The notes beneath the pieces were generated by a model. That model had not been told where the DNA came from and made no database searches. It saw only the letters and a program-made list of their open reading frames with translations. The position numbers and the translations under genes were made by a program. From positions 277,681 through 341,680 of the forward strand of contig OY729416.1 of assembly GCA_963422265.1 (NCBI GenBank): a stretch of 64,000 bases of DNA. Direction: 5' to 3'. Origin of the DNA: Thermodesulfobacteriota bacterium (GTDB taxonomy: Bacteria; Desulfobacterota_D; UBA1144; Nemesobacterales; UBA2774). Shown here piece after piece: positions 43,201 through 61,227 of this stretch (position 1 is its first letter; every line of letters starts with the position of its first letter).

Positions 43201-45618
43201 ACGGCGACCCAGGGCCAGACACTGACCGCGGATACCGGCACGATTGTTGACCCAGACGGTCCGAGTAATCTGACGTTCAGCTATCAATGGAAGCGAGGCG
43301 GGACTGACATCAGCGGCGCCACTACTAGCACCTACGTTCTGACACAGGCGGACGTAGGTTCTGTGATCACAGTAGTAGTGAGTTGGACGGACGCTGGTGG
43401 GGCATCGGAATCTCTTACCTCGACTGCCACTGCGAAGGTGATTAACATCAGCGGTGCTGACTCTGGCACGATTATTGATGTAGTAGAGGACGGTGGTCGC
43501 AGCATCATCACGGCAACGGTTGACGAGACGGCTGTGAAGCTGACGCTGCCATCTGGACACGGCGTGACGGAGATTGAGTTTTCACCGGCGGCGCCCACTG
43601 TTACTGAGCCGTCGGGCGTGAGCTTTGGGGGTAAACCGTCTTACGTGGATATAGATCTGGACGTGGAGCTCTCGTCATCATCAAGTGCCATCGTCTGTCT
43701 GGAGGAGCCCGAAGAGCTGTCAGGTAATCTATCGGTATATCATCTTGCCGATGTAGAAGGTGCGGGGTGGAGGAAGCTGCCGTCGCCTGCATCGGTGCCC
43801 AGCGGTTATGTATGCGGTAAAACGAGTAGTTTTTCTACTTTTGTATTGGGTTCGCCAAAGCCGACTTTCGGTTCAGAATCCATTGGGGACTATGTCTGGA
43901 CGGTTGGTGTGGAAGTTGTTGATGTTGTTCTACCTGAGGCTACTGGTGGTGACGGTGTTATTACCTACAGTCTGAGACCGTCTCTACCATTGGATCTTAA
44001 GTTTAATGATGATTCTCCTCGCGCTATCACTGGCAAGCCGACTGAGGCGTTAGCTAAGACGAAGTTCACCTACAAGGCTGAGGACGTAGATGGCGATACA
44101 AGTGAGTTGTCATTTAGCATAACGGTTCGTGCAGCCGAGGAAAAGGAGCGAGCGCGTGTTCTTTCTGTAGTGTTAGCTTCTTTTGGACGGGCAGCTGCAA
44201 CCGGAGCGGTGGACGTAATAGGTGAACGTTTTGTTTCTTCTTCTTCTCTGGCAGGTAGTCCTAAATTGACATTGGGTGGTGTTTCTATGACATCGTTTGA
44301 CACTCGTTCTGTGGCAGGAGCTGTGGATGGGGTGTTGGGTCTGAGTGGTGGTTCAGATATTGAATTGTTGGAGGGTTTAGATCGAGAGCCTGTTGAGTTA
44401 CGGCGTGTTTCTGGGAGGGATTTGTTTGCGCAGAGCGAATTTTCTATTCCTTTGAGTAGTAGTGGTGATATGGGAGGAGTGATGCGAGGTTGGACGTTAT
44501 GGGGCAGTGGTGCGGGTAGTGGATTTTCTGGTAGTAATTTGGATGGAGATATAGATACAGAGGGTGAGTTGTATACGGGCTACATGGGATTGGACTATAG
44601 GTTTGGTAATAGGGGTTTGGCGGGAGTAGCGATATCTCGTAGTGTTGGAGAGGTGGACTATGAGGTGGATGGTAGCTTTCATCTTATGGGTGGAGAGACA
44701 GGTAGTATCCGAGGGGAGGTAGATTTGGAGTTGACGAGCGTTCTTCCATATGCGCACTACACTATTCGTCCTGGTCTTAGTATATGGGGTTTGTTTGGAG
44801 CGGGTATAGGCGATATTGAGTTGGAGGATGGGGCAGGAGAAGTAGAGGCGGACGTAAATATGCTGATGGTAGCGTTGGGAGTGCGTCAGGAGTTGGCTAG
44901 ATGGGGAGATATAGATTTTGGGTTAAAGAGTGATGGTTTTGCAGTGCAGTTAAAGACAGAGGGGGTGGAAGGTCTTTCTGGTGTTAGTGGAGTAGCGCGT
45001 CGTTTGCGATTAGGTTTAGAGATGAGCCGTGACGTGTATGTGACAGGAGATTCTTTGTTGCTACCAAGTGTGGAGATAGGGGGGCGATGGGACGGCGGAG
45101 ATGCGGATAGTGGAGTAGGTATGGAGGTAGGCGGAGGTATAGAGTATGTTCATAGAGGTTTGGGTTTGAGCGTGGAGGTTCGAGGGAGGTATTTGTTGTT
45201 TCATGAGGAGTCTGAGTTTGAGGATTGGGGAGGTAGTTTTTCATTGCGGATGGGTGATGGAGTTCGGGGGCGTGGATTGTGGTTGAAGTTTGAGCCTGAG
45301 TGGGGTGAGGTAGCGAGTGGAGTAGAGCGAATGTGGCGAGGTGAGGTTGATAGTGGGTTAGGAGTAGGGAAGCGGGGTTTATCTCCTGGGCGTGTGAAGT
45401 TTGACGTTGGATATGGTATGGAGACGCGAGGTAGTGGGTGGCTTGTAACGCCGTATAGTGGCGTATCTATTATGAGGGAGGGGGAGCGCGAGTATAGGTT
45501 GGGTGGCAAGGTAGGTGTAGGGGAGTGGATGGATATAAGTTTGGAGGGGGAGCGTCGAGAGGTTTCTAATGGAGTTGTGGATCACGGAATACTATTATGG
45601 TGGAAGCTGTTATTGTAG
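40255..45618 (+). CDS. C-terminal 1787-aa ORF of the giant adhesin: 3 beta-sandwich domains, 8 more 95-aa repeats (array B), a cadherin-like domain and a C-terminal autotransporter-like beta-barrel
   Basis: Frame is open from 39891; the first start codon is a GTG at 40255, inside a domain. The tail GWTLWGSGAGSGFSGSNLDGDIDTEGELYTGYMGLDYRFGNRGLAGVAISRS has a type Va beta-domain-like pattern. YSLRPSLPLDLKFNDDSPRAITGKPTE..FTYKAEDVDGDTS resembles He_PIG/dystroglycan-type cadherin domains. Confidence 0.75.
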   Translation: MLDTQPSGNVTVTPTSGDSDVATVSPVSLTFTTSNWSTAQIVTVTGVDDSSDGDRSTTITHAASGGGYDSVVIASVSVTLTDDDTAGVTVSESGVTVTEASGSSNTNTYTVVLNTRPSGNVTVTPTSGDTNVATVSGALTFTTSNWSTAQSITVTGVDDSSDGDRSTTITHAASGGGYNAVVISDVAVTLTDDDTAGVTVSESSVTVTEASGSSNTNTYTVKLNTRPSGTVTVTPTSGDSDVATVSPVSLTFTTSNWGTAQSITVTGVDDSSDGDRSTTITHAASGGGYNAVVISDVAVTLTDDDNNSPTGSVTITGAATQGQRLTADTSTIVDPDGPSNLTFSYQWKRGGTDISGATSSTYVLTQADVGSMITVVVSWTDSGSTVESLTSAATASVANLNDLPTGAVTITGTVTQGQTLTADTGTIVDPDGPSNLTFSYQWKRGGTDINGATSSTYVLTQADVGSVITVVVSWTDAGGASESLTSAATASVANTNNLPTGAVTITGTVTQGQTLTADTGTIVDPDGPSSLTFSYQWKRGGTDISGATSSTYVLTQADVGSVITVVVSWTDSGSTVETLTSAATASVANVNDLPTGAVTITGTATQGQTLTADTSTIVDPDGPSNLTFSYQWKRGGTDISGATSSTYVLTQADVGSVITVVVSWTDSGSTVETLTSAATASVANVNDSPTGAVTITGTATQGQTLTADTSTIVDPDGPSNLTFSYQWKRGGTDISGGASSTYVLTQADVGAAITVTVSWTDAGGASESLTSAATASVANVNDLPTGAVTITGTATQGQTLTADTSTIVDPDGPSNLTFSYQWKRGGTDISGATSSTYILTQADVGSVITVVVSWTDAGGTSESLTSAATASVANVNDLPTGAVTITGTATQGQTLTADTGTIVDPDGPSSLTFSYQWKRGGTDINGATSSTYIMTQADVGSVITVVVSWTDSGSTVESLTSAATASVANVNDSPTGAVTITGTATQGQTLTADTGTIVDPDGPSNLTFSYQWKRGGTDISGATTSTYVLTQADVGSVITVVVSWTDAGGASESLTSTATAKVINISGADSGTIIDVVEDGGRSIITATVDETAVKLTLPSGHGVTEIEFSPAAPTVTEPSGVSFGGKPSYVDIDLDVELSSSSSAIVCLEEPEELSGNLSVYHLADVEGAGWRKLPSPASVPSGYVCGKTSSFSTFVLGSPKPTFGSESIGDYVWTVGVEVVDVVLPEATGGDGVITYSLRPSLPLDLKFNDDSPRAITGKPTEALAKTKFTYKAEDVDGDTSELSFSITVRAAEEKERARVLSVVLASFGRAAATGAVDVIGERFVSSSSLAGSPKLTLGGVSMTSFDTRSVAGAVDGVLGLSGGSDIELLEGLDREPVELRRVSGRDLFAQSEFSIPLSSSGDMGGVMRGWTLWGSGAGSGFSGSNLDGDIDTEGELYTGYMGLDYRFGNRGLAGVAISRSVGEVDYEVDGSFHLMGGETGSIRGEVDLELTSVLPYAHYTIRPGLSIWGLFGAGIGDIELEDGAGEVEADVNMLMVALGVRQELARWGDIDFGLKSDGFAVQLKTEGVEGLSGVSGVARRLRLGLEMSRDVYVTGDSLLLPSVEIGGRWDGGDADSGVGMEVGGGIEYVHRGLGLSVEVRGRYLLFHEESEFEDWGGSFSLRMGDGVRGRGLWLKFEPEWGEVASGVERMWRGEVDSGLGVGKRGLSPGRVKFDVGYGMETRGSGWLVTPYSGVSIMREGEREYRLGGKVGVGEWMDISLEGERREVSNGVVDHGILLWWKLLL
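41160..43440 (+). repeat. Tandem 285-bp repeat array B (8 units). Same protein repeat as array A but with a different synonymous codon set.
   Basis: E.g. ccgaccggggccgtcaccatcaccggcacc (A) versus ccgactggtgcggtaaccattacggggacg (B); both encode PTGAVTITGT. Confidence 0.8.
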
Positions 45619-45633: not shown

Positions 45634-45668
45634 AATCCCCCCCCCTTCCCTTTACAAAAGGGGGGATT
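45634..45668 (+). terminator. GC hairpin aatccccccccc...ggggggatt just after the giant gene stop. The loop is long and no U-tract follows.
   Basis: C9 at 45637-45645 and G6 at 45660-45665. Confidence 0.3.
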
Positions 45669-45744
45669 GTATAGGGAATGAACTCTCGTCCCCCGATGCT
45701 CTATCTGGATTCCTAGTCGAGCTGGTAATGATGGGCAAGTTGGT

Positions 45745-45925
45745 AATGACGGGTTGTTAAAAGCTGTTAGAACTAGCTATTCTCTTTCATTTTCCATCTT
45801 TTTTCTGTTACTTTCTCGGCACTTTTCTTTAACTTTTCTATTCATTTTCTATCCTTTTTATCTCTTTTCTTTAACGTGGTAAGCACGTCTCTATGAGGCA
45901 TGTCCTCATAATAATTTAAGCTCTC
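45745..45925. repeat. About 170-bp dispersed repeat element, copy B, inverted relative to copy A at 4925-5100
   Basis: The reverse complement aligns with 4925-5100, including the ccacgttaaagaaaag and atgaaagagaatagctagtt ends. Confidence 0.65.
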
Positions 45926-46042
45926 TTGGGTGGCAAATATGACGTCGCTAATTGAGGCCTAATTAAGGCGGCAGACGCTTTCCTTTCAACTCCCACTAGG
46001 TTAAACTTGCTTATCAATAGGATATAAAAATTGAGGAGGTAA

Positions 46043-46810
46043 ATGGAGATGAGGCTTACAGGCAAGATCGCCTTGATCACGGGTGGGGGTGAAGGCATAG
46101 GCAGGGCTACGGCTCTGTTATTTTCCGAGTCGGGGGTGGATGTTGGTATAATGGGTAGAACCGAGTCTAAACTTGATGGTGTAGTGCAGGAAGCCCAGGG
46201 TCCGGGGGAAATTACGGCTTATCAGGGAGACGTTTCGGTTGAGGGAGACGTAAAGAGGGTAGTCAATAGCTTTTATGATAAACACGGAAAGATAGACATA
46301 CTTTTTAATAATGCGGGAATTCTCGAAGGTGGGACGGTAGTTACGACTTCCGTGGATACGTGGGATCGGACAATGAATATAAATGTAAAGGGAATATTTC
46401 TGATGAGTAAACACGTTCTACCTCTTATGGTAAAGCACGGCGGGGGCGCTGTCATAAATAATTCTTCCGTTCTGGGAATGGTAGGAATGGAAGGATGTGT
46501 AGCTTATAATGCCTCTAAAGGGGCAGTGAGGCAGATAACGAGAAGTATGGCGATTGATCACGCTGGTGATAATATACGCGTGAATTCAGTTTGTCCGGGG
46601 TATATCAAGACCAAGATGGATCCAGAGTTTATGGGCAATCCTCCTGATGCTGAAGAGCAGCTTGACAAGATCGCTGCGGATATGATTCCCTTGGTTAGAA
46701 GAGCGGAAGCCGTTGAAGTGGGTCACGCCGTGTTATATCTGGCAAGTGACGAGGCAAGATACGTAACGGGTTCCGATTTGGTCATTGATGGAGGATGGAC
46801 AGCCGTCTAA
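46043..46810 (+). CDS. SDR-family oxidoreductase (classical short-chain dehydrogenase)
   Basis: TGGGEGIGRA Rossmann motif, NNAG, and the YNASK catalytic YxxxK. Confidence 0.85.
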   Translation: MEMRLTGKIALITGGGEGIGRATALLFSESGVDVGIMGRTESKLDGVVQEAQGPGEITAYQGDVSVEGDVKRVVNSFYDKHGKIDILFNNAGILEGGTVVTTSVDTWDRTMNINVKGIFLMSKHVLPLMVKHGGGAVINNSSVLGMVGMEGCVAYNASKGAVRQITRSMAIDHAGDNIRVNSVCPGYIKTKMDPEFMGNPPDAEEQLDKIAADMIPLVRRAEAVEVGHAVLYLASDEARYVTGSDLVIDGGWTAV

Positions 46811-46912
46811 ATTTCGTTGCTACTCAACTGATGTTCGCGTAGAAATTACGTAAGCGCATCCTCAACTCCGATTGGGGAACGATGACGGAATTAGGTGTAA
46901 TCTTAACTTTGC

Positions 46913-47980
46913 CTATAGTTTCTCAACGGTATCAAGTACCTTCTCGGCAATTTTCGTAAAAGACTTAGCTGCTGTGCTCTCGGGATAAGACTCTACTATT
47001 GGCACTCCCGAATCTCCGCCCTTTCTGATCTTTGGGTCTATAGGTATCTCGCCTAGGAACGGCACGCCGAATTTTTCAGCCATTTTTCTCCCTCCGCCTC
47101 TACCAAAGATATCTATCGGCTCACCCCCACCGGCGTTTTCAAGGTAGCTCATGTTTTCTACTATACCGATTATGGGAACGTTTAATTTTCTGAACATCTG
47201 CACGCCACGCTTAACGTCTATAAGCGCTACGTCTTGAGGAGTGGTTATGATTAACCCCCCGCTTATAGGCACGGTTTGCGCTAGGGACAGTTGGGCGTCA
47301 CCCGTTCCAGGAGGAAGGTCTATTACAAGGTGCTCCGTATCGCCCCACCTAACGTCTTCTATAAACTGCTTAATCGCCCCGTGAACCATAGGACCACGCC
47401 ATATTACCGTTTCATCTTCATTGATCAGGAAGCCGATTGACATAAGTTTAAGGCCGAATTTGGAGAGCGGTATTATTTTGTTGTCTTCGGTTGCTCTGGG
47501 TCTTTCTTTTACACCTAGCATTATAGGCGTGCTCGGACCCCAGATGTCCGCGTCCATAAGTCCTACTCTATCTCTCATCTGAGCAAGCGCTACGGCTACG
47601 TTCACCGCGACGGTGGATTTGCCCACCCCGCCTTTGCCGCTCGCAACAGCAATGTAGTATTTAACGTCCGGCAGCTTCCCCGCTTGTGGCTTGGCTTGCC
47701 CACGTTCCCGTCCTTGTACAGGAGGGCTTTTAGGTTGTCTTGCCGATATGTGAATTGCTACATCGGAAACCCCCGATATGCTCGTAACGACGGATCTTAT
47801 GGATTTCTCAATCTCAGTCCCAATACGTTTATCAGACTTCGGTAGCACAAGAGACAACTCTACTTTATTGCCTTGTATGTTTATATCTTTTACGATACCA
47901 AACGATACGATGTCTCTTGTAAATCCGGGATATTTTACGTTTTTAAGGACTCTGCGGATTTCGTCAACGTTAAGCTCCAT
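46913..47980 (-). CDS. Mrp/NBP35 (ApbC) iron-sulfur cluster carrier ATPase with an N-terminal DUF59 domain
   Basis: SGKGGVGKST deviant Walker A; CxxC near the C-terminus. Confidence 0.9.
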   Translation of the reverse strand: MELNVDEIRRVLKNVKYPGFTRDIVSFGIVKDINIQGNKVELSLVLPKSDKRIGTEIEKSIRSVVTSISGVSDVAIHISARQPKSPPVQGRERGQAKPQAGKLPDVKYYIAVASGKGGVGKSTVAVNVAVALAQMRDRVGLMDADIWGPSTPIMLGVKERPRATEDNKIIPLSKFGLKLMSIGFLINEDETVIWRGPMVHGAIKQFIEDVRWGDTEHLVIDLPPGTGDAQLSLAQTVPISGGLIITTPQDVALIDVKRGVQMFRKLNVPIIGIVENMSYLENAGGGEPIDIFGRGGGRKMAEKFGVPFLGEIPIDPKIRKGGDSGVPIVESYPESTAAKSFTKIAEKVLDTVEKL

Positions 47981-48001
47981 TATATTCTTGTTGCGCTCCT
48001 T

Positions 48002-48418
48002 TTAAGCTATGCCCAGCTTTTGTTTAGCTTCCTCTGTCATCATGTCAGGATTCCAAGGTGGATCCCATACTACTTCAACGAGCACGTTCTTGGCTCCCGC
48101 TTCCTTTATCGCCTCTTCGGCCTGACTGGCTATCATAGCCCCCATACCACATCCCGGGGTAGTCAAGGTCATTTTAAGGTTGACGTTCTTACCCGAAGAG
48201 ATAGCTACGTTATAGATAAGCCCTAAGTCAACTATACTTACAGGGATCTCTGGATCATATACTTTCCCAAGCGCTTCATATACGCGGTTCTCAGTTAATG
48301 GATGCTGGGTCTCGCTTTTTTCAGGCTTTTCAAACTTCTTAAAGGTTACGCCCTTTTCCGAAGGGACCGCAGGCGGGTCTTTCTTTATACTTATTATTTT
48401 CCTCATTCCCATTTTCAA
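48002..48418 (-). CDS. DUF59 (MIP18/SufT-like) Fe-S cluster assembly protein
   Basis: VYDPEIPVSIVDLGLIY...TTPGCG motif. Confidence 0.7.
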   Translation of the reverse strand: MKMGMRKIISIKKDPPAVPSEKGVTFKKFEKPEKSETQHPLTENRVYEALGKVYDPEIPVSIVDLGLIYNVAISSGKNVNLKMTLTTPGCGMGAMIASQAEEAIKEAGAKNVLVEVVWDPPWNPDMMTEEAKQKLGIA

Positions 48419-48522
48419 TACCCTCCTATTCCTAAAATATCATATCACTTCTAAGGTTACCTGCTTTATCTAAAGATAGTTAGCTCCATGCGTTAGATAT
48501 AATACATGTCTAATTATATGTT

Positions 48523-49722
48523 ATGCTACATAAAATGGAACTGCTAAAATTACGTGATTCAGAGCAGGTCAAACTTTTATCAAACGTTCAGTTTCTCTAC
48601 GAATTACACCTTGCATCCTTAGAATTATCGTCTTTTTGTTCCCAATGGGAATTTCTTTCCGACTTCCGTTCTTTTGCAGTCAAAGATCCTGAGATTGATA
48701 ATATCCTCACGCGTTCTGCTTACATATCAGGAGCGAACGGGGTTTCCTCTGACTATGCGAAGCTCACGAATTACAATATAACGCGATCTTTCAATCAATA
48801 TATAACGCACTGGTTTTATCCATACAAAGGTAAATACCATCCTCAGATGGTTCGCTCTCTTGCAAATATAATAGGATTGAAATCGGGAGATACTCTGCTT
48901 GATCCCTTTATAGGGAGTGGTACAACTGCACTAGAAGGGGCTTTGCTCAATTTGAGAGTAGTAGGGTTTGATATATCCCCCTTATGCGTCTTAATTAGCA
49001 AAGTCAAAACCAATGCCGTTCATCATCTCCCCGAAATTAGTCAATACTATCCTAATGACCTTGAGAAAGGTAGCCGTATAAGAATGGGCGATATGGTTGA
49101 GTGTATGAGTGACCACGTCAAGAGTTTTGGTTTGTTAGCAAAGATGATTGCAACCAGTGATAACGCCAGGCGTAATCGTGATTTTACCGAAATGCTTATT
49201 CATAATGAGAATAAAATGATTAAAAGCATACAGCTAATGAAAAACGCCTGTGCAGAAATACAAATTTCGCCAACACTGGCGGACATAAGGATAGGAGATG
49301 CTCGTTGCTTGCCTTTACCTGATAATAGCGTGGATGGAATAATAACCTCTCCACCTTACTCGTTAGCCCTGGACTATGTTGCTAATGATTCTCATTCACT
49401 AGAAGCACTTGGATATGACTTGAGTACAATCAGGGAGAATTTTATAGGTGTTAGAGGCAAAGGAAAGAAGCGAATTGAATTTTATGAGCGGGATATGCTC
49501 CGTGCTTACAGTGAGATGGGTAGGGTGTTAAAACCATCGGGCAAAGCTGTCATCGTCATCGGTGATGCTACCGTTAATGGAAATAAGGTACATACAACGG
49601 AAAAGTGTATTGAGACCTTTGCTAAACTCGGATTCAAGCTCATTCATACTGTGGATAAGCTAATTTATGGTCTATACAATGTAATGCAAAGAGAGTTTAT
49701 ACTTATTTTTGAAAGATATTAG
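48523..49722 (+). CDS. Putative N6-adenine/N4-cytosine DNA methyltransferase, alpha-like motif order (I then IV)
   Basis: Motif I LLDPFIGSGTTALEG (~aa 116) and motif IV IITSPPY (~aa 275). Lower GC than flanking genes. Adjacent to a PD-(D/E)XK ORF. Confidence 0.6.
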   Translation: MLHKMELLKLRDSEQVKLLSNVQFLYELHLASLELSSFCSQWEFLSDFRSFAVKDPEIDNILTRSAYISGANGVSSDYAKLTNYNITRSFNQYITHWFYPYKGKYHPQMVRSLANIIGLKSGDTLLDPFIGSGTTALEGALLNLRVVGFDISPLCVLISKVKTNAVHHLPEISQYYPNDLEKGSRIRMGDMVECMSDHVKSFGLLAKMIATSDNARRNRDFTEMLIHNENKMIKSIQLMKNACAEIQISPTLADIRIGDARCLPLPDNSVDGIITSPPYSLALDYVANDSHSLEALGYDLSTIRENFIGVRGKGKKRIEFYERDMLRAYSEMGRVLKPSGKAVIVIGDATVNGNKVHTTEKCIETFAKLGFKLIHTVDKLIYGLYNVMQREFILIFERY

Positions 49723-49731
49723 GGATTACCG

Positions 49732-50362
49732 ATGAAGCGAGAGCAAATAGAAGGAAAGCAACTTGAGCAGCTTAAAGAAGCGGCAAAGATTTTTATAAAA
49801 CCGATGGAAAAGCTTCCTTTTCCTGTTGTGATAGAGGCGATGACTGGTTACCAACTGATTCCGTACATTGAAGAAGATGACAAAGGATTAATAGATGCCC
49901 TTTCCAAATGTTGTATCAAGACAGTGGACGATTCTGAAAGACACCCGATAACTGCCAATCGTCCAAATGATGTTAAGCACTCAAGTAGAAAAGATGATTC
50001 AAAAAAATCTAAATGCCGGTGGGATCACTTCTGAGAAACCAAAATCGCAAGTGAAGGGATCCGCTTTCCCGCAAGGCTATCCTGATTTGTTACTTTGGGA
50101 GGGGGTGAGGCCAACCTACTTAGAAGTAAAGGTCTCTAGGGTGGAAAATATTTCTAGGGGTTCTGCGAGAAATTTTTTCTATCAGCCAACGCGGAATTCA
50201 AAAATTGCGTATAGTGCTAGACATATTTTATGCGGCTTTTCAATCTCTGAACAAAGCGAGAAAAAATGGGTATTAAAGAGATGGAAAATTACGGACTTAT
50301 GGTTTCTCAGGGTTAAGCTCAAACCTGAATACAATGCAGACAATCTTGGCAGACAATCTTGA
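49732..50362 (+). pseudogene. Candidate Type II restriction endonuclease (PD-(D/E)XK), split into two overlapping ORFs by a frameshift at an A7 tract (50001-50007)
   Basis: ORFs 49732..50034 and 49967..50362 fuse into a ~209-aa protein if the A7 tract were A6. GYPDLLLWEGVRPTYLEVKV fits PD-x(n)-E-x-K. Confidence 0.4.
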
Positions 50363-50649
50363 AATTTATAGACAGGAAGCAATTATATTGGAAGGGGACG
50401 GGAAGAAAATTACGAGTTGATTTTGATAAATGCTTATATGAGGTATCACCCGACATGGTGCTAGGTTCCATAAGATACTATTCAGAGGGCAAAAGTCATT
50501 TATTAAAAATGTCTGATTAGACCATGTTGGGCAAGAACGTCATATAATTCCCAAATTACACCTGCATCCTTGAAACGACAACGCCTTAGAGTATATTTAC
50601 ACCCCGAATGTCTCTAATGATTTATTTTCCTTTGAGGAATGCATCTTAA

Positions 50650-52167
50650 ATGGATTTGCTTTTAAGTGGTAACCTGTCGTTAATAATTTTCTTTCCCCTA
50701 GTGGGAATACCACTCATTATTTTTGTCTCTTATTTATACAATAACGATGAAGAGTCCATAAAGAGAAGCGCTTTGGTAGTAACTCTTATTGAGTTCTTAT
50801 TGTCAATCCCTCTATTTACGGCTTTTGAAACGGGGGATGCTGATATGCAGTTTGTAACCAAAATCCCGTGGATTGAAAGTCTTGGCGTCAGCTACCACGT
50901 CGGCGTTGACGGTATCAGCCTTCTATTAGTTCTTCTTACGACCTTTATTATGCCCATTACTATCCTGAGTTCATGGCGGGCTATCAATAAGGGTATGCGT
51001 GAATTCTTGATACTTACGCTATTACTTGAGTCAGCCCTGATAGGCACATTCGCGGCGCTGGATATGATCCTGTTTTTCGTATTTTGGGAAGCCGTGCTTA
51101 TACCGATGTACTTTATAATAGGTATATGGGGTACTGAGCGGAGAGTTTACGCCGCAATCAAGTTTTTTATCTATACGGCGTTCGGAAGCGCCCTTATGCT
51201 CATAGCTATTTTTTACCTTTTCTTCGCTCACTTAAATCAGTTCGGCTTCTCTTCAATGAACGTGCTTGATTTTTATAGAGTGTCTCTCCCCTATTACGGC
51301 GTAATTAGCCCGCAGGGGCTAGCGTTTCTAGCGTTTTTACTCGCTTTCGCGATCAAGGTGCCAATGTTTCCATTTCATACTTGGCTTCCTGACGCGCACG
51401 TTGAAGCCCCCACGGCTGGAAGCGTAATACTCGCAGCCGTGCTTCTTAAGATGGGAACCTACGGTTTTTTAAGGTTCTTGCTGCCATTTTTTCCTGAGGC
51501 GACGGTAGCTTATCTACCCCTTCTCCTCACTATTGCGATAGTGGGGATAATCTATGGTGCTATGGTCGCGTTTGCTCAGAAGGACCTTAAAAAGCTAGTG
51601 GCTTACTCTAGCGTGAGTCACCTAGGTATGGTTATGCTTGGGATTCTTGTTCTTAACTTTCATGGTATTCAGGGTGGAATTTATCATATGGTAAATCACG
51701 GGCTTTCTACGGGCGCGCTCTTTTTAATGGTTGGAATGATTTACGAAAGGCGACACACTAAGAAAATCGCTGATTTTGGGGGTATTGCTAAAGTAATGCC
51801 GATATTCGCAGCGTTTTTCATGCTTGCTACGCTTTCATCCATAGGACTTCCCCTCTTAAATGGCTTTGTAGGTGAGTTCCTGATACTTCTTGGGGCATTT
51901 GAGTTTAACTACGTGTGCGCCATACTAGGCGCAACCGGCGTGGTGCTAGGAGCGGTTTACATGCTCTGGGCATATCAAAAGGTTATGTTTGGATCTCTAT
52001 CTAGTCCAGCTAATAAAGTTCTTATGGATGTAAATATAAGGGAAATTTTGGTTCTTCTTCCGCTTGCCGTTATGATGTTTGTAATGGGGGTTTATCCTGC
52101 ACCGTTTCTATCTAGGATTGAGCCTTCGGTTCGGGCTTTGTTGGATAGTAAACTATTACTCTATTGA
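50650..52167 (+). CDS. nuoM: NuoM/ND4-family proton-pumping subunit, standalone (complex I subunit M or MrpD-like)
   Basis: 505 aa, about 14 TM helices; WLPDAHVEAPTAGSVILAAVLLKMGTYG signature. Confidence 0.75.
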   Translation: MDLLLSGNLSLIIFFPLVGIPLIIFVSYLYNNDEESIKRSALVVTLIEFLLSIPLFTAFETGDADMQFVTKIPWIESLGVSYHVGVDGISLLLVLLTTFIMPITILSSWRAINKGMREFLILTLLLESALIGTFAALDMILFFVFWEAVLIPMYFIIGIWGTERRVYAAIKFFIYTAFGSALMLIAIFYLFFAHLNQFGFSSMNVLDFYRVSLPYYGVISPQGLAFLAFLLAFAIKVPMFPFHTWLPDAHVEAPTAGSVILAAVLLKMGTYGFLRFLLPFFPEATVAYLPLLLTIAIVGIIYGAMVAFAQKDLKKLVAYSSVSHLGMVMLGILVLNFHGIQGGIYHMVNHGLSTGALFLMVGMIYERRHTKKIADFGGIAKVMPIFAAFFMLATLSSIGLPLLNGFVGEFLILLGAFEFNYVCAILGATGVVLGAVYMLWAYQKVMFGSLSSPANKVLMDVNIREILVLLPLAVMMFVMGVYPAPFLSRIEPSVRALLDSKLLLY

Positions 52168-52212
52168 TTCCACTGATTCCACAGTTGCGGAAATGGTGTT
52201 TGGATACTGTAA

Positions 52213-52635
52213 ATGGCGTCAAGAAAACTTCTTACTAAAAAGATGGAATTCTCGGCTTCGCACAGCTACTGGCGTCCTGAATGGAACGAGGAGAGAAATA
52301 AAGATATGTTTGGCAAGTTCGCGAGTCCCCATGGACACGGACACAACTACAGCCTTGAAGTTACAGTAGAGGGGGAGATTGATACGGAGACAGGCATGAT
52401 AGTTAACCTGTATGACCTAAAAACATTAATGAAAGAGGTGTTAATTGACTTTGACCATAAGCACTTGAATAAGGATAATCCGAGATTCGAGAAACTAATT
52501 CCTACTACTGAAAACGTGGCTAAGGTGCTGTGGGAGATTTTTCAGGAAAAACTTTCCGACAATGGACAGTGTAGTCTTTACAGGATAAGGCTTTACGAGA
52601 CACCGGACCTATACGTTGATTACTGGAGGAGCTAA
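52213..52635 (+). CDS. 6-pyruvoyl-tetrahydropterin synthase family protein (PTPS-like; no Cx5HGH cysteine)
   Basis: FSASHSY...SPHGHGHNYSLEV; EVLIDFDHKHLN. Confidence 0.75.
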   Translation: MASRKLLTKKMEFSASHSYWRPEWNEERNKDMFGKFASPHGHGHNYSLEVTVEGEIDTETGMIVNLYDLKTLMKEVLIDFDHKHLNKDNPRFEKLIPTTENVAKVLWEIFQEKLSDNGQCSLYRIRLYETPDLYVDYWRS

Positions 52636-52637
52636 CC

Positions 52638-53069
52638 TTGAGGGAAGTCATTTGCGTTACGAAGAGGTACCGTTTTTCAGCCGCGCATAGGCTATACGTT
52701 AAGGGGTTTTCTGATGAAGAGAACGCAAGGATTTTTGACGCTTGCTCTAATCCAAACGGGCACGGGCACGATTACTACCTAGAGTGTAGAATATCGGGAG
52801 ATATAAACCCGGAGACGGGTATGCTAATGAATCCTGAGGAGCTTGACCGTATAGTAGATCCGGTGATCGGGGAACTCGACAACAAACGACTTGATGTGGA
52901 GGTGGCATATTTTAGGGAGTATCAGCCAACGGGCGAGAACATTTTAAGATATTTATGGGAGCGGTTGCGCGGGCAGCTTGGAGATAGGCAGATTCATTTG
53001 AGGCTTAGTGAGACGTCTAGTAGTTATTTTGAATATTTTGAGGAGAGTAATTATCCCTATGAGTGTTAA
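52638..53069 (+). CDS. queD: 6-carboxy-5,6,7,8-tetrahydropterin synthase, QueD-like (Cx5HGH present)
   Basis: FSAAHRL...CSNPNGHGHDYYLE. Confidence 0.7.
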   Translation: MREVICVTKRYRFSAAHRLYVKGFSDEENARIFDACSNPNGHGHDYYLECRISGDINPETGMLMNPEELDRIVDPVIGELDNKRLDVEVAYFREYQPTGENILRYLWERLRGQLGDRQIHLRLSETSSSYFEYFEESNYPYEC

Positions 53070-53622
53070 GAAAGCCATCAGGCAAATTCTAGTTGATATA
53101 GGTGAAGATCCAAACAGGGAAGGGCTAAAGGACACGCCGGATAGGATGTCTAGGATGTTCAAAGAACTCACGTGGGGCTACGACGCTTCCCCCCAAGACA
53201 TTATAAATGAGGCTTTGTTCAACATAGATTTTGACGAGATGGTTGTGGTTAAAGACATAGAATTCTATAGCCTTTGCGAACACCACATGCTTCCTTTTTT
53301 CGGGACGTGCAACGTGGCTTATATTCCTAACGGAAAGATAATTGGGCTTAGTAAAATCCCGCGAATCGTAGAAGTCTTTTCAAGAAGGCTTCAGGTTCAG
53401 GAAAGGATGACAACGCAGATCGCCGACTTTATAGATAACGCTCTTGATCCCATTGGGGTCGCCGTAGTAGCCGAAGCCCGGCACCTGTGCATGGCTATGA
53501 GGGGAATAATGAAAGCTGACGCGAGTATGCTGACAAGCTCAATGAGGGGGGCTTTTAAGACCGATAAGAAAACCAGAGGTGAGTTCCTTAGTTTTCTAGG
53601 TAAGCGTTACCATAATACTTAA
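53059..53622 (+). CDS. folE: GTP cyclohydrolase I
   Basis: EDPNREGLKDTPDRM...YSLCEHHMLPFFG...ARHLCMAMRG. Start at MSVKKAIRQIL, overlapping the queD end by 11 nt. Confidence 0.9.
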   Translation: MSVKKAIRQILVDIGEDPNREGLKDTPDRMSRMFKELTWGYDASPQDIINEALFNIDFDEMVVVKDIEFYSLCEHHMLPFFGTCNVAYIPNGKIIGLSKIPRIVEVFSRRLQVQERMTTQIADFIDNALDPIGVAVVAEARHLCMAMRGIMKADASMLTSSMRGAFKTDKKTRGEFLSFLGKRYHNT

Positions 53623-53801
53623 ATCTTTGTTGTTTTCTATACAGGTTATATTTTTCAGCTCAGCCACCCTGAACTTATGTTATCTGCGTCCATCTTTGTC
53701 TTTAGGCATCGCCCATAGGCTTTCTACTATAGAAATAGCTTGTAGATAGTATATAATTCACGTGTTGAATTTATAGTTGGAACCGAAAGAGGAATGGTTC
53801 T

Positions 53802-55124
53802 ATGTTGCAAGTAGTCGTCGTCGGGTTAAGTTACAGGACGGCGCCAGTAGAATTGAGAGAGCGTTTTAGCGTTGCTCAGGACGAGCTTGAATCAAAGCTT
53901 GTCAACCTGAGCGATGAGGGCAAAGTTGAAGAGTGCTTGATACTTTCTACCTGCAACAGGATAGAGGTGTACGCAGTATCCAAGGACGTATATTCCTCCG
54001 TTGAAGAAATTAACGGTTTTCTCGCAGAATCCGCTGGGGTTCCTACGAAGAGCTTGTCTCAGTGCGTGTATGTGTCGGTCGGAGGTATGGCTGTGAAGCA
54101 TTTATATAGGGTCGCATCCGGTATAGATTCCATGGTCATTGGGGAACCACAAATATTGGGGCAGGTAAAGCAAGCCTATAAAACCTCTGTCCTGAGGGGG
54201 ACTGCGGGGCTTATTCTTAACAGGCTCTGCCATTCTGCGTTCTTCGTGGCAAAAAAAGTGCGTTCCGAGACTGGTATAGGTTCAAGGGCAGTTTCAGTGA
54301 GTTATGTTGCGGTAGAACTGGCGAAGAGAATCTTTGACGACTTGTCTAAAAGAGCCGTTATGCTTATAGGTTCGGGTGACATGGCTGAACTTGCGGCGAA
54401 AAATCTTCTTAGATCGGGTGTGGGCGAGTTGTTGATAGCGAGTAGAAATTTTGATCACTCGTCTTCGCTGTCTCGTAAGCTCAACGGCAAGCCAATTAAG
54501 TATGACGAGCGTCTTTATTTCTTAAAGGATGTAGATATAGTGATCACGGCTACGGGCTCTCCAGATTTCATTATCAAGCCCAGTCACGTTCGGCAGGCGC
54601 TCAAGTTAAGAAGAAACGAGCCTATATTTATGATAGATATAGCCGTCCCTCGGAATATAGATCCCAGGGTAGAGGAGCTTTCTGATATCTATTTATACGA
54701 TATAGATGACTTAAAAAACGTTCTGGATAAGAACGTAAAGACAAGGCGTGCAGACGCTGAGAAGGCTGAGGAGATCGTGTCTGACGCGGAAAAAGCCTTT
54801 GGAGCGTGGATCAATAGTCTCAAGGTCGTCCCAACTATTATAGATCTTAAAAATAGATTTGAGTCTATCAAAAAAACTGAGGTTGAACGGACGCTTGTAA
54901 AACTAGGCAGTTTTACCGATAGGGATAAAGATGCCGTTAATCTCATGGCTTCCAGAATCATAGATAAAATCCTACATAACCCTCTGACCAATCTGAAAAA
55001 AGAGGCTTCTACCTCTTTAGGAGCCTTATACGTAGATTCAGTGAAAAGGCTATTTGAGCTTGAGAGCAAAATTCTCGTGGTTGAGGAAGAGGAAGATGAA
55101 TTGGCCATTCAGAATTGGAACTAG
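53802..55124 (+). CDS. hemA: Glutamyl-tRNA reductase
   Basis: VVGLSYRTAPVELRE, ILSTCNRIEVY, GEPQILGQVK. Confidence 0.9.
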   Translation: MLQVVVVGLSYRTAPVELRERFSVAQDELESKLVNLSDEGKVEECLILSTCNRIEVYAVSKDVYSSVEEINGFLAESAGVPTKSLSQCVYVSVGGMAVKHLYRVASGIDSMVIGEPQILGQVKQAYKTSVLRGTAGLILNRLCHSAFFVAKKVRSETGIGSRAVSVSYVAVELAKRIFDDLSKRAVMLIGSGDMAELAAKNLLRSGVGELLIASRNFDHSSSLSRKLNGKPIKYDERLYFLKDVDIVITATGSPDFIIKPSHVRQALKLRRNEPIFMIDIAVPRNIDPRVEELSDIYLYDIDDLKNVLDKNVKTRRADAEKAEEIVSDAEKAFGAWINSLKVVPTIIDLKNRFESIKKTEVERTLVKLGSFTDRDKDAVNLMASRIIDKILHNPLTNLKKEASTSLGALYVDSVKRLFELESKILVVEEEEDELAIQNWN

Positions 55125-56022
55125 AGGGAGCAGTCTAGCTTTATGGCAGGCTAGTTTCATAGAGCATTTACTATTAAAAGAATTTCCAAACCTTAAATCC
55201 GAAATAATAGCCATAAAAACGACAGGCGATAAAATGAGCGCCTCTCCTCTTTCAAAGATTGGGGGGAAAGGCGTTTTTGTTAAAGAGATAGAAGAAGCTC
55301 TTATTTCTAAGAGTATAGATATAGCTGTTCATAGTATGAAGGACTTGCCTACTTTACTTCCGACGAACCTCGCGATCGGTGGTGTGGCTAAAAGGTATGA
55401 GCCAAGGGACGCGTTGATTTCAGCGAACGGGTTTAAGCTTGCCGAACTCCCTCAGGGGGCGAGGGTAGGTACGGGAAGTTTAAGGCGTGCCTCACAATTG
55501 ATTTATAGCTTTCCCGGGCTCAGGATTGTTCCTATAAGGGGTAACGTGGATACCAGAATCAGAAGGTTGAAAGAATCTGGTGAGTTTGACGCGATAATTC
55601 TGGCGATGGCGGGTCTTGAACGTATGGGGTTGAGTAGTGAGGCGAGCGAAGTAGTATCGGCAGATTTGCTTTTACCTGCACCTGGACAGGGGGCGATCGC
55701 CGTTGAATGCAGAAAAGGGGATGAGCGGGTTTTTGAGATGCTTTTACGAATTAGCCACGAGGAGACTAGAATTGAGGTAGCGGCTGAGAGGGCTTTCCTT
55801 AGAGAGCTTTCGGCAGATTGCAACGTTCCAGTGGGAGCTTACGCTTCAATTGATAAGGATTCGTTAAGTATTACAGGGCTAGTTGCCTCTCCTGATGGTA
55901 AGGAGATTATTAGAAAAGAAAAAAGGGGTTCTAGGGAAGAAGCTGAGGCTCTCGGTCAGGGGTTAGCGGGGCTTATATTAAGTGACGGTGGAGATAAGAT
56001 ACTAGCGAAACTTAGATTGTAA
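55096..56022 (+). CDS. hemC: Hydroxymethylbilane synthase (porphobilinogen deaminase)
   Basis: IGTRGSSLALWQA...AVHSMKDLPT...GQGAIAVECR. Overlaps the hemA end. Confidence 0.9.
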   Translation: MNWPFRIGTRGSSLALWQASFIEHLLLKEFPNLKSEIIAIKTTGDKMSASPLSKIGGKGVFVKEIEEALISKSIDIAVHSMKDLPTLLPTNLAIGGVAKRYEPRDALISANGFKLAELPQGARVGTGSLRRASQLIYSFPGLRIVPIRGNVDTRIRRLKESGEFDAIILAMAGLERMGLSSEASEVVSADLLLPAPGQGAIAVECRKGDERVFEMLLRISHEETRIEVAAERAFLRELSADCNVPVGAYASIDKDSLSITGLVASPDGKEIIRKEKRGSREEAEALGQGLAGLILSDGGDKILAKLRL

Positions 56023-56064
56023 TAGTCTCTCCATCTGTTATTATCTGTATAAGGGAGATGTTGG

Positions 56065-56916
56065 ATGTATTCTCAAAATCCTTCGGAGGTCTGTTTTTCT
56101 TTTCTGGACGTTGAGACGACTGGACTCGATCCTTATTCGGGCGATAAAATCTGTGAAATAGCGATACTGAAAACGATAGATGAAAAGGTTATAGACGATT
56201 ACGTTACGCTTGTTAATCCCGGGAAATCCATTTCTACAGGGGCGAGTGCAGTTAATGGTATAACTGATGATATGATTAGAGGAGCACCGTTCTTTAGAGA
56301 TATTGCCGAGGACGTTGTATCTTTTCTAAACAACACCGTGATTGTCGCTCATAATGCGAAGTTTGATATGCACTTTTTAAGTATGGAGCTAGGCGCACTT
56401 AGGCTTTCCTCGCCTGAATTTCACGTTATAGATACCCTGCGAATAGCAAGAAGATATTACAAGTTTTATAGTAATAGCCTCGGACAGATAGCACGGTGTA
56501 TAGGGCTTCCCGCTCGTTATGAACATCGTGCGCTTGCGGACGTGCAGACTACCAAGAAAGTTTTTGAATACTTTCTCATGGATTTAGGTAAAAGAAGAGG
56601 AATAAGGTTAAACAAGTTAAAAGACGTGCTAAAGTTACAAGGGGTGGACTTTGAGTCTCAAGAGGAACCAAACAGGCTAGCAATTCCCCCCGAGATAACG
56701 ATTCCCTCTGAGATAGAGAATGCTCTTAGGACTAAGGGTAAACTCCAAATCACGTATGTTTCGGCTTGTGAAGAAAAGACTACGAGAGTGATAGAACCCC
56801 TTGGTATAAGCGTGGATATGGAGAATGTTTGCCTACACGCCTTTTGTCCTCTGAGAAAGAAGAAACGCACTTTCAGGCTAGACAGAATATTGGAAATTAA
56901 GCCCTTAAGCGCATAG
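56065..56916 (+). CDS. DnaQ/epsilon-like DEDD 3'-5' exonuclease fused to a C-terminal WYL-like domain
   Basis: FLDVETTGLDP (Exo I) and HNAKFDMHFL (Exo II). The C-terminus LQITYVSACEEKTTRVIEPLGI...RTFRLDRILEIKPL matches the WYL-domain pattern. Confidence 0.7.
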   Translation: MYSQNPSEVCFSFLDVETTGLDPYSGDKICEIAILKTIDEKVIDDYVTLVNPGKSISTGASAVNGITDDMIRGAPFFRDIAEDVVSFLNNTVIVAHNAKFDMHFLSMELGALRLSSPEFHVIDTLRIARRYYKFYSNSLGQIARCIGLPARYEHRALADVQTTKKVFEYFLMDLGKRRGIRLNKLKDVLKLQGVDFESQEEPNRLAIPPEITIPSEIENALRTKGKLQITYVSACEEKTTRVIEPLGISVDMENVCLHAFCPLRKKKRTFRLDRILEIKPLSA

Positions 56917-56967
56917 TGGCTTGAGATACTGCATCTATTCTGAGTATCGAGATAAATACGGAAAGAC

Positions 56968-56996
56968 TTGACAGTAATTATTATTTCTAATAATAT
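56968..56996 (+). promoter_or_regulatory. Sigma70 promoter TTGACA-17-TAATAT, about 18 nt upstream of tRNA-Met
   Basis: ttgaca 56968-56973; 17-nt spacer; taatat 56991-56996. Confidence 0.5.
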
Positions 56997-57013
56997 ATAT
57001 TTTCCTATTCAGA

Positions 57014-57090
<77 letters not shown>

Positions 57091-57135
57091 ATACTATCAG
57101 TATTATTCCTCTTTTTGGATTAAAGGAGGGTATGA

Positions 57136-58803: not shown

Positions 58804-58927
58804 GAACAAAGCTAGGTTGATTTGTCAGTAAGTCGTAGGTCTTTCCTTTCAGTGGCTACGAGCCTTACTTTAGCAGACTCAAGATACCAAGTTGACCCCA
58901 ATGTGGAGTCTTGCTATCATTTTCTAA

Positions 58928-59998
58928 ATGCGCACCGGATATGCCCAGCTTTCACTTCACGGGGGAAAAGCTCCCAAGTGGCTCTTTAACCGTATGATTA
59001 GACTCTCAAGAGAGATTGTTTGCCATATAGTGTCTGAATACGGTGCGAATGAAGTTCTCGTCCGTCTTTCAGATCCGCACTGGTTTCAGGCTTTGGGGTG
59101 CGTTTTAGGTTTTGACTGGCATTCAAGCGGCGTCACTACGACCACGTGCGGAGCTATAAAGGAGGGCATAAAAGGACTTGAGGAAGAACTCGGTCTATTC
59201 GCGGCGGGTGGTAAGGGTAAAGCATCGCGCAGGACGCCCGATGAAATAGCCCAGGCCTCTGATAAGTTGTCCAGCAAGTCAGATAACCTTGTGTATGCAA
59301 GCAGTTTATCCGCTAAAGTTGATAGCTCAGCCGTTCAGGACGGTTATCAACTCTATCATCATAGCTTCTTTTTTTCGAGCAGTGGCGAGTGGTGCGTTGT
59401 TCAGCAGGGTTTTAACGATGCCGCTCGGTCGGCAAGAAGATACCATTGGCTCAGCAGTAGGCTGGACAGCTTCGTCAATGAGCCTCACGCTGCTATATGC
59501 AGCAATTATCGATCAAAGACCCTTGACCTTGTATCCCAAGAGAGTTTGGAAACCAGAAAGGCAGTTACGGAGATTGCACGGCAGCCTGATAAGGGGGTGC
59601 TCAAGGACGTTGGGCATTTACCAGAGCTTATAATGCCAAGCTATCACGGGATTAACTTAACTGACATTAACCCCAAGTATCTTAATAAGGTTTTGTTAAA
59701 GACTTACGAGAAAAAGCCAGAGAATTTTGAAGGGCTTCTTAGCATAAATGGGGTTGGACCCAAGACGCTTCGCGCGCTTACTCTTACATCAGAGCTTATA
59801 TACGGTACGAAAGCAAGCGTTAATGACCCTGCAAGATTTTCATTCGCTCATGGTGGCAAGGACGGTACTCCTTTCCCCGTAAATAGGGAAACTTACGAGA
59901 TTAGCATATCAGTGCTTCACGATGCCCTTAGAAGAGCTAAAATAGGCAGAAGTGAAAGGCTTGGAGCAATAAGAAGGTTGTCCAAACTGCAAGTATGA
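58928..59998 (+). CDS. DUF763 family protein
   Basis: LHGGKAPKWLFNRM N-terminal signature. Confidence 0.7.
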   Translation: MRTGYAQLSLHGGKAPKWLFNRMIRLSREIVCHIVSEYGANEVLVRLSDPHWFQALGCVLGFDWHSSGVTTTTCGAIKEGIKGLEEELGLFAAGGKGKASRRTPDEIAQASDKLSSKSDNLVYASSLSAKVDSSAVQDGYQLYHHSFFFSSSGEWCVVQQGFNDAARSARRYHWLSSRLDSFVNEPHAAICSNYRSKTLDLVSQESLETRKAVTEIARQPDKGVLKDVGHLPELIMPSYHGINLTDINPKYLNKVLLKTYEKKPENFEGLLSINGVGPKTLRALTLTSELIYGTKASVNDPARFSFAHGGKDGTPFPVNRETYEISISVLHDALRRAKIGRSERLGAIRRLSKLQV

Positions 59999-61195: not shown

Positions 61196-61227
61196 TTGAT
61201 TCTCCTATGACTGTTAACTTACGGCTC

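What the first reader, a model, noticed from the sequence alone, without database searches (positions are those of the whole stretch)
49990..50040. Restriction endonuclease candidate is interrupted at an A7 homopolymer
ORFs 49732..50034 and 49967..50362 would merge into one ORF if the tract at 50001-50007 were A6 instead of A7. A mononucleotide tract at exactly the break point suggests either reversible phase variation of restriction activity, with the MTase intact, or a homopolymer sequencing error. Either way, the real gene is not the two fragments the ORF track shows.
Basis: seen in the sequence. Interest (0 to 1): 0.6.

Follow-up and report, generated by a model that had tools for sequence, protein, structure and literature searches.

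The report
Decayed GTAC-type restriction enzyme gene
This is an ordinary dead restriction-enzyme gene next to its intact protective methylase, broken by a one-base insertion and a 13-base duplication rather than at the run of seven A's, so there is no sign of an on/off switch.

Summary
The A7 tract (50001-50007) and the two overlapping ORFs exist. Deleting one A would merge them, but so would deleting almost any base in 49949-50034. Protein and DNA alignments with intact homologues (up to 75% identity, 222-232 aa, Pfam PF27324 "MjaV") put the real frame break 27 nt upstream. It is one extra base in GATG[T]TAAGC at 49973/49974. The A7 is in frame and encodes Gln-Lys-Asn, and an intact orthologue carries the same A7. 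A second lesion was missed: a perfect 13-bp tandem duplication (50336-50348 / 50349-50361). It shifts the frame again and removes the conserved C-terminal E-I-Y-R segment. The gene (49732-50420) is therefore a three-piece pseudogene of a MjaV-family Type II PD-(D/E)XK restriction endonuclease, with a predicted EcoRV-like fold. The upstream SPPY methyltransferase (48523-49722) is intact. GTAC, the MjaV site, is the most depleted tetranucleotide in the window. Going from A7 to A6 would misread nine codons, including invariant Glu86, and leave the protein truncated. Phase variation at A7 is not supported. Assembly error cannot be excluded without reads, but it is the less likely explanation. This is an ordinary case of restriction-gene decay with the methylase retained.

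The parts
48523..49722 (+). Intact DNA methyltransferase gene (399 aa; an alternative start at 48535 gives 395 aa). Motif I is DPFIGSGTT and motif IV is TSPPY. It is the presumed cognate M of the system.
   Evidence: Pfam PF01555 N6_N4_Mtase at 56 bits against a cut-off of 26.7. PADLOC MTase_II at 2e-36. Full-length, gap-free core alignment at 67-70% identity to the methylases that sit directly upstream of intact R homologues.
49732..50420 (+). Whole restriction-endonuclease pseudogene of the MjaV family. It is 689 nt, made of 675 nt of ancestral gene plus 1 nt plus 13 nt.
   Evidence: tblastn of the intact homologue P0001 gives three collinear HSPs in frames 2, 3 and 1, covering residues 1-87, 81-204 and 201-219. 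The restored 224-aa product scores 376.7 bits against the family HMM.
49732..49972 (+). Piece 1: codons 1-80 plus the first two bases of codon 81. This is the N-terminal helical region up to ...ANRPND(V). Its frame runs on to a stop at 50032-50034.
   Evidence: fragment 1 aligns to HMM positions 1-84.
49973..49974 (+). Lesion 1: one extra base. It is a T in the TT pair, or equivalently an A in AA at 49975-49976. Homologues read GAT GTA/GTG AGC (Asp-Val-Ser) here.
   Evidence: Single-column gap in all five homologous DNAs. The HMM score of the deletion scan peaks at 49973-49976.
50001..50007 (+). The A7 tract of the finding. It is in frame with piece 2, as codons CAA AAA AAT (Gln-Lys-Asn), and is not a lesion.
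   Evidence: It aligns without a gap to the homologues. The intact orthologue L006 has the identical CAAAAAAAT. The family consensus here is ..LQxNL...
50081..50131 (+). PD-(D/E)XK catalytic motif in piece 2: Pro117-Asp118 (50081-50086), then Glu131-Val-Lys133 (50123-50131).
   Evidence: E131 and K133 are invariant and D118 is at least 90% conserved in the alignments. Coordinates were read.
50336..50361 (+). Lesion 2: a perfect 13-bp tandem duplication, GCAGACAATCTTG twice. It shifts the frame by +1 and creates a TGA at 50360-50362.
   Evidence: the repeat finder family D8 at 100% identity with spacing 13. It appears as a 13-column insertion relative to all homologues. Removing one copy adds 32.6 bits.
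50362..50420 (+). Piece 3: the displaced C-terminal codons ...EIYRQEAIILEGDGKKITS and the ancestral stop TGA at 50418-50420.
   Evidence: Third tblastn HSP. E206, I207, Y208, R209 and G217 are conserved in at least 90% of 66 homologues.

Best explanation
The locus is a two-gene Type II restriction-modification cassette of the MjaV kind: methyltransferase first, then a small PD-(D/E)XK endonuclease. The probable target is GTAC, with m4C protection. The endonuclease gene has been inactivated and the methyltransferase gene is intact. Two independent lesions inactivate it. The first is a one-base insertion at 49973/4, which separates the N-terminal helical region (residues 1-81) from the catalytic core and cuts the helix that carries invariant Glu86. 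The second is a 13-bp tandem duplication at 50336-50361, which removes the conserved C-terminal strand. The A7 tract is ordinary coding sequence (Gln-Lys-Asn). Shown here: the positions of both lesions, family membership by homology, the intact partner methylase, the predicted fold, and GTAC depletion. Inferred: that the lesions are biological rather than assembly errors; that the target is GTAC; that the decay is recent, because no further damage is visible; and that losing R while keeping M is the viable order of loss, because a cell that loses M first is cut by the remaining R (post-segregational killing, established knowledge of Type II systems).
For: Homologues: 75 proteins, the best at E = 2.4e-104 and 75% identity, typically 222-232 aa, all carrying PF27324, which is named MjaV. 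DNA alignments put a 1-nt gap at 49973/4 and a 13-nt gap at the duplication, with the A7 gap-free. HMM scores: repairing at T49973 scores 19.2 bits more than repairing at the A7, and removing the duplicate copy adds 32.6 bits. The deletion scan peaks at 49973-49976. tblastn shows three frames. The restored protein departs from the consensus at only 2 of 75 columns that are at least 90% conserved, both Ile for Leu. The A6 version also loses S82, E86 (100% conserved) and L89. PADLOC gives REase_II at 3e-21 over 13-219. The AlphaFold model of P0001 has pLDDT 89.6. The best solved-structure matches are EcoRV, SfiI, SwaI, BglI, HincII and Hjc, all PD-(D/E)XK nucleases. The methylase is intact, and methylase-endonuclease adjacency is conserved in 16 related loci from bacteria and archaea. 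M.MjaV methylates GTAC as m4C (PMC11033074, PMC2588503). GTAC is the most depleted of all 256 tetranucleotides in the window (60 observed, 166 expected, z = -8.2), and O/E is 0.32 pooled over 16 homologue-bearing loci. Against artefact: no other split gene appears in about 45 kb of non-repeat coding sequence. An independent assembly of a 99.76%-identical strain shows 0 gaps over 4125 nt. Neither lesion lies in a long homopolymer. Other copies of this family have also lost R beside a full-length M: L009 has an ATA start codon and a 1-nt insertion, and L018/L019 have an in-frame deletion of about 68 aa.
Against: No reads are available, and only one record carries these exact proteins. The giant repeat gene in the same window has many small indels that look like unpolished long-read consensus, so the assembly is not error-free. 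The restored protein shows no further decay, which fits an artefact as well as it fits a very recent inactivation. GTAC specificity is inferred from the family name and from site avoidance, and specificities can differ within a family. PF27324 is absent from the local Pfam copy, so membership rests on homology to annotated members rather than on a direct model hit (one search found no family).
Confidence: 0.75

Rival explanations
1. One or both lesions are assembly or consensus errors, and the organism carries an intact, active MjaV-type endonuclease.
For: The source is a single 1.78-Mb contig and its proteins are singletons in the collection. The long, near-identical tandem repeats resolved in the giant gene suggest a long-read assembly. 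That gene shows clusters of small indels at 39250-40270. The restored protein is as well conserved as intact homologues.
Against: Two lesions fall in one 0.69-kb gene while about 40 other genes in about 45 kb of non-repeat sequence show none. A perfect 13-bp tandem duplication is not a usual base-calling error. The extra base sits in a TT/AA dinucleotide, not in a homopolymer. There is no indel against an independent assembly over 4.1 kb nearby. The R gene of an R-M pair is a common target of real decay, as seen in L009 and L018/19.
Confidence: 0.2
2. The A7 tract is a contingency locus, and slippage between A7 and A6 switches restriction on and off while the methylase stays on.
For: A7 lies inside the ORF overlap, and A6 would fuse the two ORFs. 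Homopolymer-driven phase variation of R-M genes is well documented in other bacteria (established knowledge).
Against: The A7 aligns in frame with all homologues and is present in an intact orthologue. The true break is 27 nt upstream. The A6 product misreads nine codons, including invariant Glu86. The 13-bp duplication would still truncate it. Seven A's is short for an efficient slippage tract, and such runs occur 12 times in this window.
Confidence: 0.02
3. The fragments are expressed on purpose, either by programmed ribosomal frameshifting or as a split two-chain enzyme, and restriction is still active.
For: The catalytic PD...EVK core lies wholly within piece 2, which has an internal ATG at 49994.
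Against: Two separate +1 events would be needed. There is no slippery heptamer or known +1 signal at GUU-AAG. No homologue is organised this way. The C-terminal conserved strand is lost in any case.
Confidence: 0.02

Closest known systems
MjaV / M.MjaV restriction-modification system of Methanocaldococcus jannaschii (Pfam PF27324 'MjaV'; GTAC, m4C)
   Same: All 75 homologues of the restored protein carry PF27324. The gene pair has the same make-up: a small endonuclease next to an SPPY-type N4/N6 methyltransferase. GTAC is strongly avoided in the window and around related loci, as reported for the M. jannaschii genome (PMC2588503).
   Different: This copy is bacterial. The nearest relatives are Thermodesulfobacteriota and other marine MAGs. 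It is not intact. Its specificity and cleavage position were not measured. The direct similarity to the MjaV protein itself was not measured here.
EcoRV-like branch of PD-(D/E)XK Type IIP endonucleases (EcoRV, HincII, SwaI, SfiI, BglI)
   Same: The predicted fold of the 75%-identical homologue matches EcoRV best (Foldseek E = 9e-5, probability 1.00, TM 0.39-0.46). It has a PD...(D/E)XK motif and an upstream conserved acidic residue on a helix (Glu86). Glu86 may be the counterpart of EcoRV Glu45; this is an inference.
   Different: Sequence identity is only 10-13%. The TM-scores are modest. There is no sequence-level match to any solved structure. The comparison rests on a model, not on a crystal structure.
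HpyAXII (GTAC) of Helicobacter pylori and other R-M systems with 'asymmetric conservation' of M and R
   Same: The evolutionary pattern is the same: the methylase is kept and the endonuclease is mutated (title and discussion of PMC2588503). Here it recurs in L009, L018/19 and L011.
   Different: R.HpyAXII and R.PabI belong to the half-pipe glycosylase family, not PD-(D/E)XK, and their methylases make m6A (PMC2588503).
Homopolymer phase-variable R-M genes (contingency loci of Helicobacter, Haemophilus, Neisseria, Campylobacter)
   Same: A mononucleotide run lies inside an R-M gene.
   Different: The run is in frame and is not at the lesion. It is short (7 nt). It is shared with an intact orthologue. 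Changing its length would not restore the protein.

Membership tests
MjaV-family Type II restriction endonuclease (PF27324) | Full-length significant sequence similarity to family members | tested here: met
   The best hit has E = 2.4e-104 at 75% identity and 98-100% coverage. All 75 hits carry PF27324. The restored protein scores 376.7 bits against an HMM of 62 members.
MjaV-family Type II restriction endonuclease (PF27324) | Direct hit to the Pfam model above its gathering score | not testable with these tools
   The local Pfam-A copy returned no family. PF27324 appears only as a precomputed annotation of homologues.
MjaV-family Type II restriction endonuclease (PF27324) | Catalytic PD-(D/E)XK residues present | tested here: met
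   Asp118, Glu131 and Lys133 are present in piece 2. E and K are invariant and D is at least 90% conserved in the family.
MjaV-family Type II restriction endonuclease (PF27324) | Uninterrupted reading frame (a functional member) | tested here: not met
   There is a one-base insertion at 49973/4 and a 13-bp duplication at 50336-50361. tblastn shows three frames.
MjaV-family Type II restriction endonuclease (PF27324) | Adjacent cognate DNA methyltransferase | tested here: met
   An intact PF01555 methylase ends 9 nt upstream. The same pairing is seen in 16 related loci.
MjaV-family Type II restriction endonuclease (PF27324) | Recognition of GTAC | tested here: inconclusive
   The evidence is indirect only. 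GTAC is the most depleted tetranucleotide in the window (O/E 0.36, z = -8.2), and O/E is 0.32 around homologues. M.MjaV is GTAC m4C in the literature (PMC11033074).
PD-(D/E)XK nuclease fold, EcoRV-like | Three-dimensional core similar to solved members | tested here: met
   The model of homologue P0001 has pLDDT 89.6 and pTM 0.84. Foldseek top hits are EcoRV, SfiI, SwaI, BglI, HincII and Hjc, with E down to 9e-5. The test was done on a 75%-identical relative, not on the window protein itself.
Simple-sequence-repeat phase-variable gene (contingency locus) | The repeat tract coincides with the frame break | tested here: not met
   The break is at 49973/4. The A7 at 50001-50007 aligns gap-free.
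Simple-sequence-repeat phase-variable gene (contingency locus) | A one-unit change of the tract restores the functional protein | tested here: not met
   The A6 product loses S82, invariant E86 and L89, scores 19 bits lower, and remains truncated by the duplication.
Simple-sequence-repeat phase-variable gene (contingency locus) | Tract-length polymorphism within the population | not testable with these tools
   There are no reads. The exact proteins occur on a single record.
N4-cytosine/N6-adenine DNA methyltransferase (PF01555), for the upstream gene | Pfam hit above the cut-off, with the AdoMet motif and the (S/D/N)PPY motif | tested here: met
   56 bits against a cut-off of 26.7. DPFIGSGTT and TSPPY are conserved in the alignment with partner methylases. 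SPPY is typical of m4C enzymes (established knowledge), but the modified base was not determined.

The most novel reading that the evidence does not exclude
The repeated loss of the endonuclease beside a full-length methylase in this family (the window, L009, L018/L019 and L011, among the roughly 17 distinct loci looked at) may not be neutral decay. It may reflect selection for a stand-alone GTAC m4C methyltransferase, for example as an epigenetic regulator or as lasting 'vaccination' against incoming GTAC-cutting systems. The 13-bp tandem duplication is also a lesion that could in principle revert by slippage.
Probability: 0.1. Interest if true: 0.35.

Novelty: new member of a known kind. Interest (0 to 1): 0.15.

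Why it matters
It matters mainly for annotation. The locus should be recorded as one pseudogene (49732-50420) of a MjaV-family restriction endonuclease with two defined lesions, next to an intact and probably orphaned m4C methyltransferase. It should not be recorded as two hypothetical proteins or as a phase-variable gene. It also gives a practical caution. A homopolymer inside the overlap of two ORFs does not locate a frameshift, because any base in the overlap gives the same fusion. Only alignment to intact relatives locates the break. Biologically it adds one more example of losing R first and keeping M. It also gives indirect support, through GTAC avoidance, for GTAC specificity across a family that has no solved structure.

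Tried and rejected
1. Local Pfam-A and NCBIfam scans of the fused protein gave no family. The family name came only from precomputed annotations of homologues.
2. Sequence searches of the PDB with the single protein and with a 57-sequence profile found nothing meaningful.
4. Look-ups of the window's own R fragment and methylase by exact sequence gave no retrievable contig. The source record, organism name and reads could therefore not be obtained. The genome is not among the GTDB representatives scanned.
5. I suspected that L016/L017 (a 137-aa gene call) was another pseudogene. Translation showed an intact 229-aa gene with a TTG start, so I rejected that.
6. The promoter and terminator scan of the locus was at chance level for promoters and uninformative.
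7. Rfam and tRNA scans found only a tRNA-Met at 57014, unrelated to the finding.
8. A search for flanking repeats that might mark a mobile element around the cassette found only short chance-level matches apart from the 13-bp duplication.
9. I considered programmed frameshifting and a split enzyme and rejected both, for lack of signals and because two events would be needed.

Full report
**Observation.** The sequence at 50000-50008 is C-AAAAAAA-T, so the A7 at 50001-50007 is real. ORFs 49732..50034 (100 aa) and 49967..50362 (131 aa) are on the + strand in different frames and overlap by 68 nt. Removing one A fuses them. The window holds 12 A or T runs of 7 or more, so a run inside an overlap of this size is uncommon but not remarkable.

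**Where the frame really breaks.** A search with the fused protein found 75 homologues. Most are 222-232 aa, with up to 75% identity over 98-100% of the length, and all are annotated with Pfam PF27324. In the alignment the family reads ...ANRPNDVSxxVExxLQxNL.... The second ORF already reads ...STQVEKMIQKNLNAGG... upstream of the A7. The frames must therefore hand over before the A7.

- DNA alignments with five homologous genes show a single one-base gap in every homologue at GATG-TAAGC against the window's GATGTTAAGC, at window position 49973/4. The A7 region aligns without any gap.
- I deleted each base from 49940 to 50044 in turn and scored the product against an HMM of 62 intact homologues. 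Deleting almost any base from 49949 to 50034 (83 of 86 positions) fuses the ORFs. The score peaks at 376.7 bits for 49973-49976 and falls to 357.5 bits in the A7.
- The intact orthologue in locus L006 (protein P0015, 225 aa, on a 1.9-Mb contig) has the identical CAAAAAAAT at the homologous place, read as Gln-Lys-Asn.
- The A6 product would replace S82, E86 (invariant in 66 homologues) and L89.

**A second lesion.** Positions 50336-50348 and 50349-50361 are a perfect tandem duplication of GCAGACAATCTTG. It appears as a 13-column insertion relative to all homologues. It shifts the frame and creates the TGA at 50360-50362 that ends the second ORF. Removing one copy restores ...NADNLEIYRQEAIILEGDGKKITS and the stop at 50418-50420. 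It adds 32.6 bits and recovers E206, I207, Y208, R209 and G217, all conserved in at least 90% of homologues. tblastn with an intact homologue shows three collinear pieces in three frames. The gene is therefore 49732-50420, in three pieces.

**What the gene is.**
- PF27324 is named MjaV in the contig annotations.
- PADLOC gives a Type II restriction enzyme model at 3e-21 over nearly the full length.
- The protein has the PD...(D/E)XK signature: Pro117-Asp118, then Glu131-Val-Lys133, at 50081-50131. E and K are invariant.
- An AlphaFold model of the 75%-identical homologue P0001 is confident (pLDDT 89.6, pTM 0.84). Its best solved-structure matches are EcoRV, SfiI, SwaI, BglI, HincII and the Hjc resolvase, all PD-(D/E)XK nucleases.
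- No solved structure matches by sequence.
- The upstream gene (48523-49722) is an intact PF01555 methyltransferase with DPFIGSGTT and TSPPY motifs. It is 67-70% identical, end to end, to the methylases that precede intact R homologues.
- The methylase-then-endonuclease pairing is found in 16 related loci from several bacterial phyla and DPANN archaea.

**Specificity.** M.MjaV methylates GTAC to m4C (PMC11033074, PMC2588503). The latter paper notes strong GTAC avoidance in genomes that carry such systems. In this window GTAC is the most under-represented of all 256 tetranucleotides: 60 observed against 166 expected from a second-order Markov model (z = -8.2). It ranks second after GGCC when the giant repeat gene is left out. 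Pooled over 16 homologue-bearing loci (118 kb), GTAC has O/E 0.32. This supports GTAC as the target but does not prove it.

**Real decay or artefact?** The exact proteins occur on one 1.78-Mb record only, and I could not reach reads.

For a real pseudogene:
- Two lesions fall in one 0.69-kb gene, while a scan for same-strand, frame-shifted ORF pairs found no other split gene in about 45 kb of non-repeat coding sequence.
- Neither lesion lies in a long homopolymer.
- A perfect 13-bp duplication is not a typical consensus error.
- An independent assembly of a 99.76%-identical strain has no gap against the window over 4125 nt nearby.

For an artefact:
- The giant repeat gene at 26270-45618 has clusters of small indels that look like unpolished consensus.
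- The restored protein shows no further decay. It differs at 2 of 75 conserved columns, both Ile for Leu, which is like intact members.

I put a real, recent pseudogene at about 0.75 and an assembly error at about 0.2.

**Other copies.** The R gene has been damaged independently beside a full-length methylase in other loci:
- L009 has an ATA in place of the start codon and a one-base insertion at a different site.
- L018/L019 have an in-frame deletion of about 68 residues that removes the ANRPNDVS..E segment.
- L011 lacks the first ~74 residues.
- L016/L017 looked truncated in the gene call but are intact, with a TTG start.

Loss of R with retention of M is the expected order of decay for a Type II system, because loss of M first exposes the chromosome to the remaining endonuclease (established knowledge). 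It matches the 'asymmetric conservation' described for another GTAC system (PMC2588503).

**Verdict.** It is indeed one restriction gene next to an intact methylase, but the A7 is not the break. Neither phase variation nor a homopolymer error at A7 explains the locus, and a second lesion was missed. This is an ordinary decayed member of a known family, so interest is low.

Noticed in passing
window 26221-26242: A run of 22 C's lies in an AT-rich intergenic stretch, 28 nt upstream of the TTG start (26270) of a signal-peptide-bearing giant repeat protein. A perfect TTGACA hexamer lies at about 26166. This is a far better candidate for a slippage tract, or for an assembly artefact, than the A7.
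   Followed up: partly
window 26270-45618: A very large, GC-rich (61% against about 44% elsewhere) tandem-repeat surface protein ends in an autotransporter beta-domain (PF03797). It is split over at least five reading frames. Small deletions and frame changes cluster at 26880, 27120, 28400 and 39250-40270. It is either a decayed gene or poorly polished repeat consensus.
   Followed up: partly
window 1-26000 and 45700-64000: GGCC is even more depleted than GTAC outside the giant gene: 21 observed against 105 expected, O/E 0.20, z = -8.2. This suggests past or present pressure from a GGCC-specific system elsewhere in the genome.
   Followed up: no
window 48523-50420: The R-M cassette has lower GC (about 40%) than its neighbours (43-48%). 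It contains four GTAC sites in 1.9 kb, about twice the window average density, as if it were less adapted to GTAC avoidance than the host genome. The genomic contexts of the homologues differ from this one, which is consistent with a mobile cassette.
   Followed up: partly
L009 4001-4690 (Thermodesulfobacteriota MAG, 238-kb contig): An independent pseudogene of the same endonuclease family lies beside an intact 397-aa methylase. Its start codon is ATA, and it has a one-base insertion (CATCCAAAAC against CAT-CAA) near codon 63.
   Followed up: yes
L018 and L019 2501-2974; L011 4001-4519: There are other damaged copies. Two related genomes carry an in-frame loss of about 68 residues of the N-terminal region. 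A Verrucomicrobia MAG lacks the first ~74 residues.
   Followed up: partly
L010 2840-3987 (Candidatus Zeuxoniibacter abyssi, complete genome CP136751.1): Here the methyltransferase, not the endonuclease, matches in two different frames, switching near residue 73-81, while the R homologue (P0062, 223 aa) looks intact. That would be an unexpected and potentially lethal configuration, or a sequencing error.
   Followed up: no
L001 3573-3785, L002 136-348, L003 3587-3802, L005 2567-2770: A conserved small ORF (about 70 aa, no Pfam family) sits directly upstream of the methylase in several related cassettes. It is absent from the window, where only 104 nt separate the methylase from the divergent FeS-assembly gene. 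It may be a regulator of the cassette.
   Followed up: partly
window 45637-45645 and 60063-60078: A C9 run lies immediately after the stop of the giant gene. An A8 run directly abuts a G8 run at 60063-60078.
   Followed up: no
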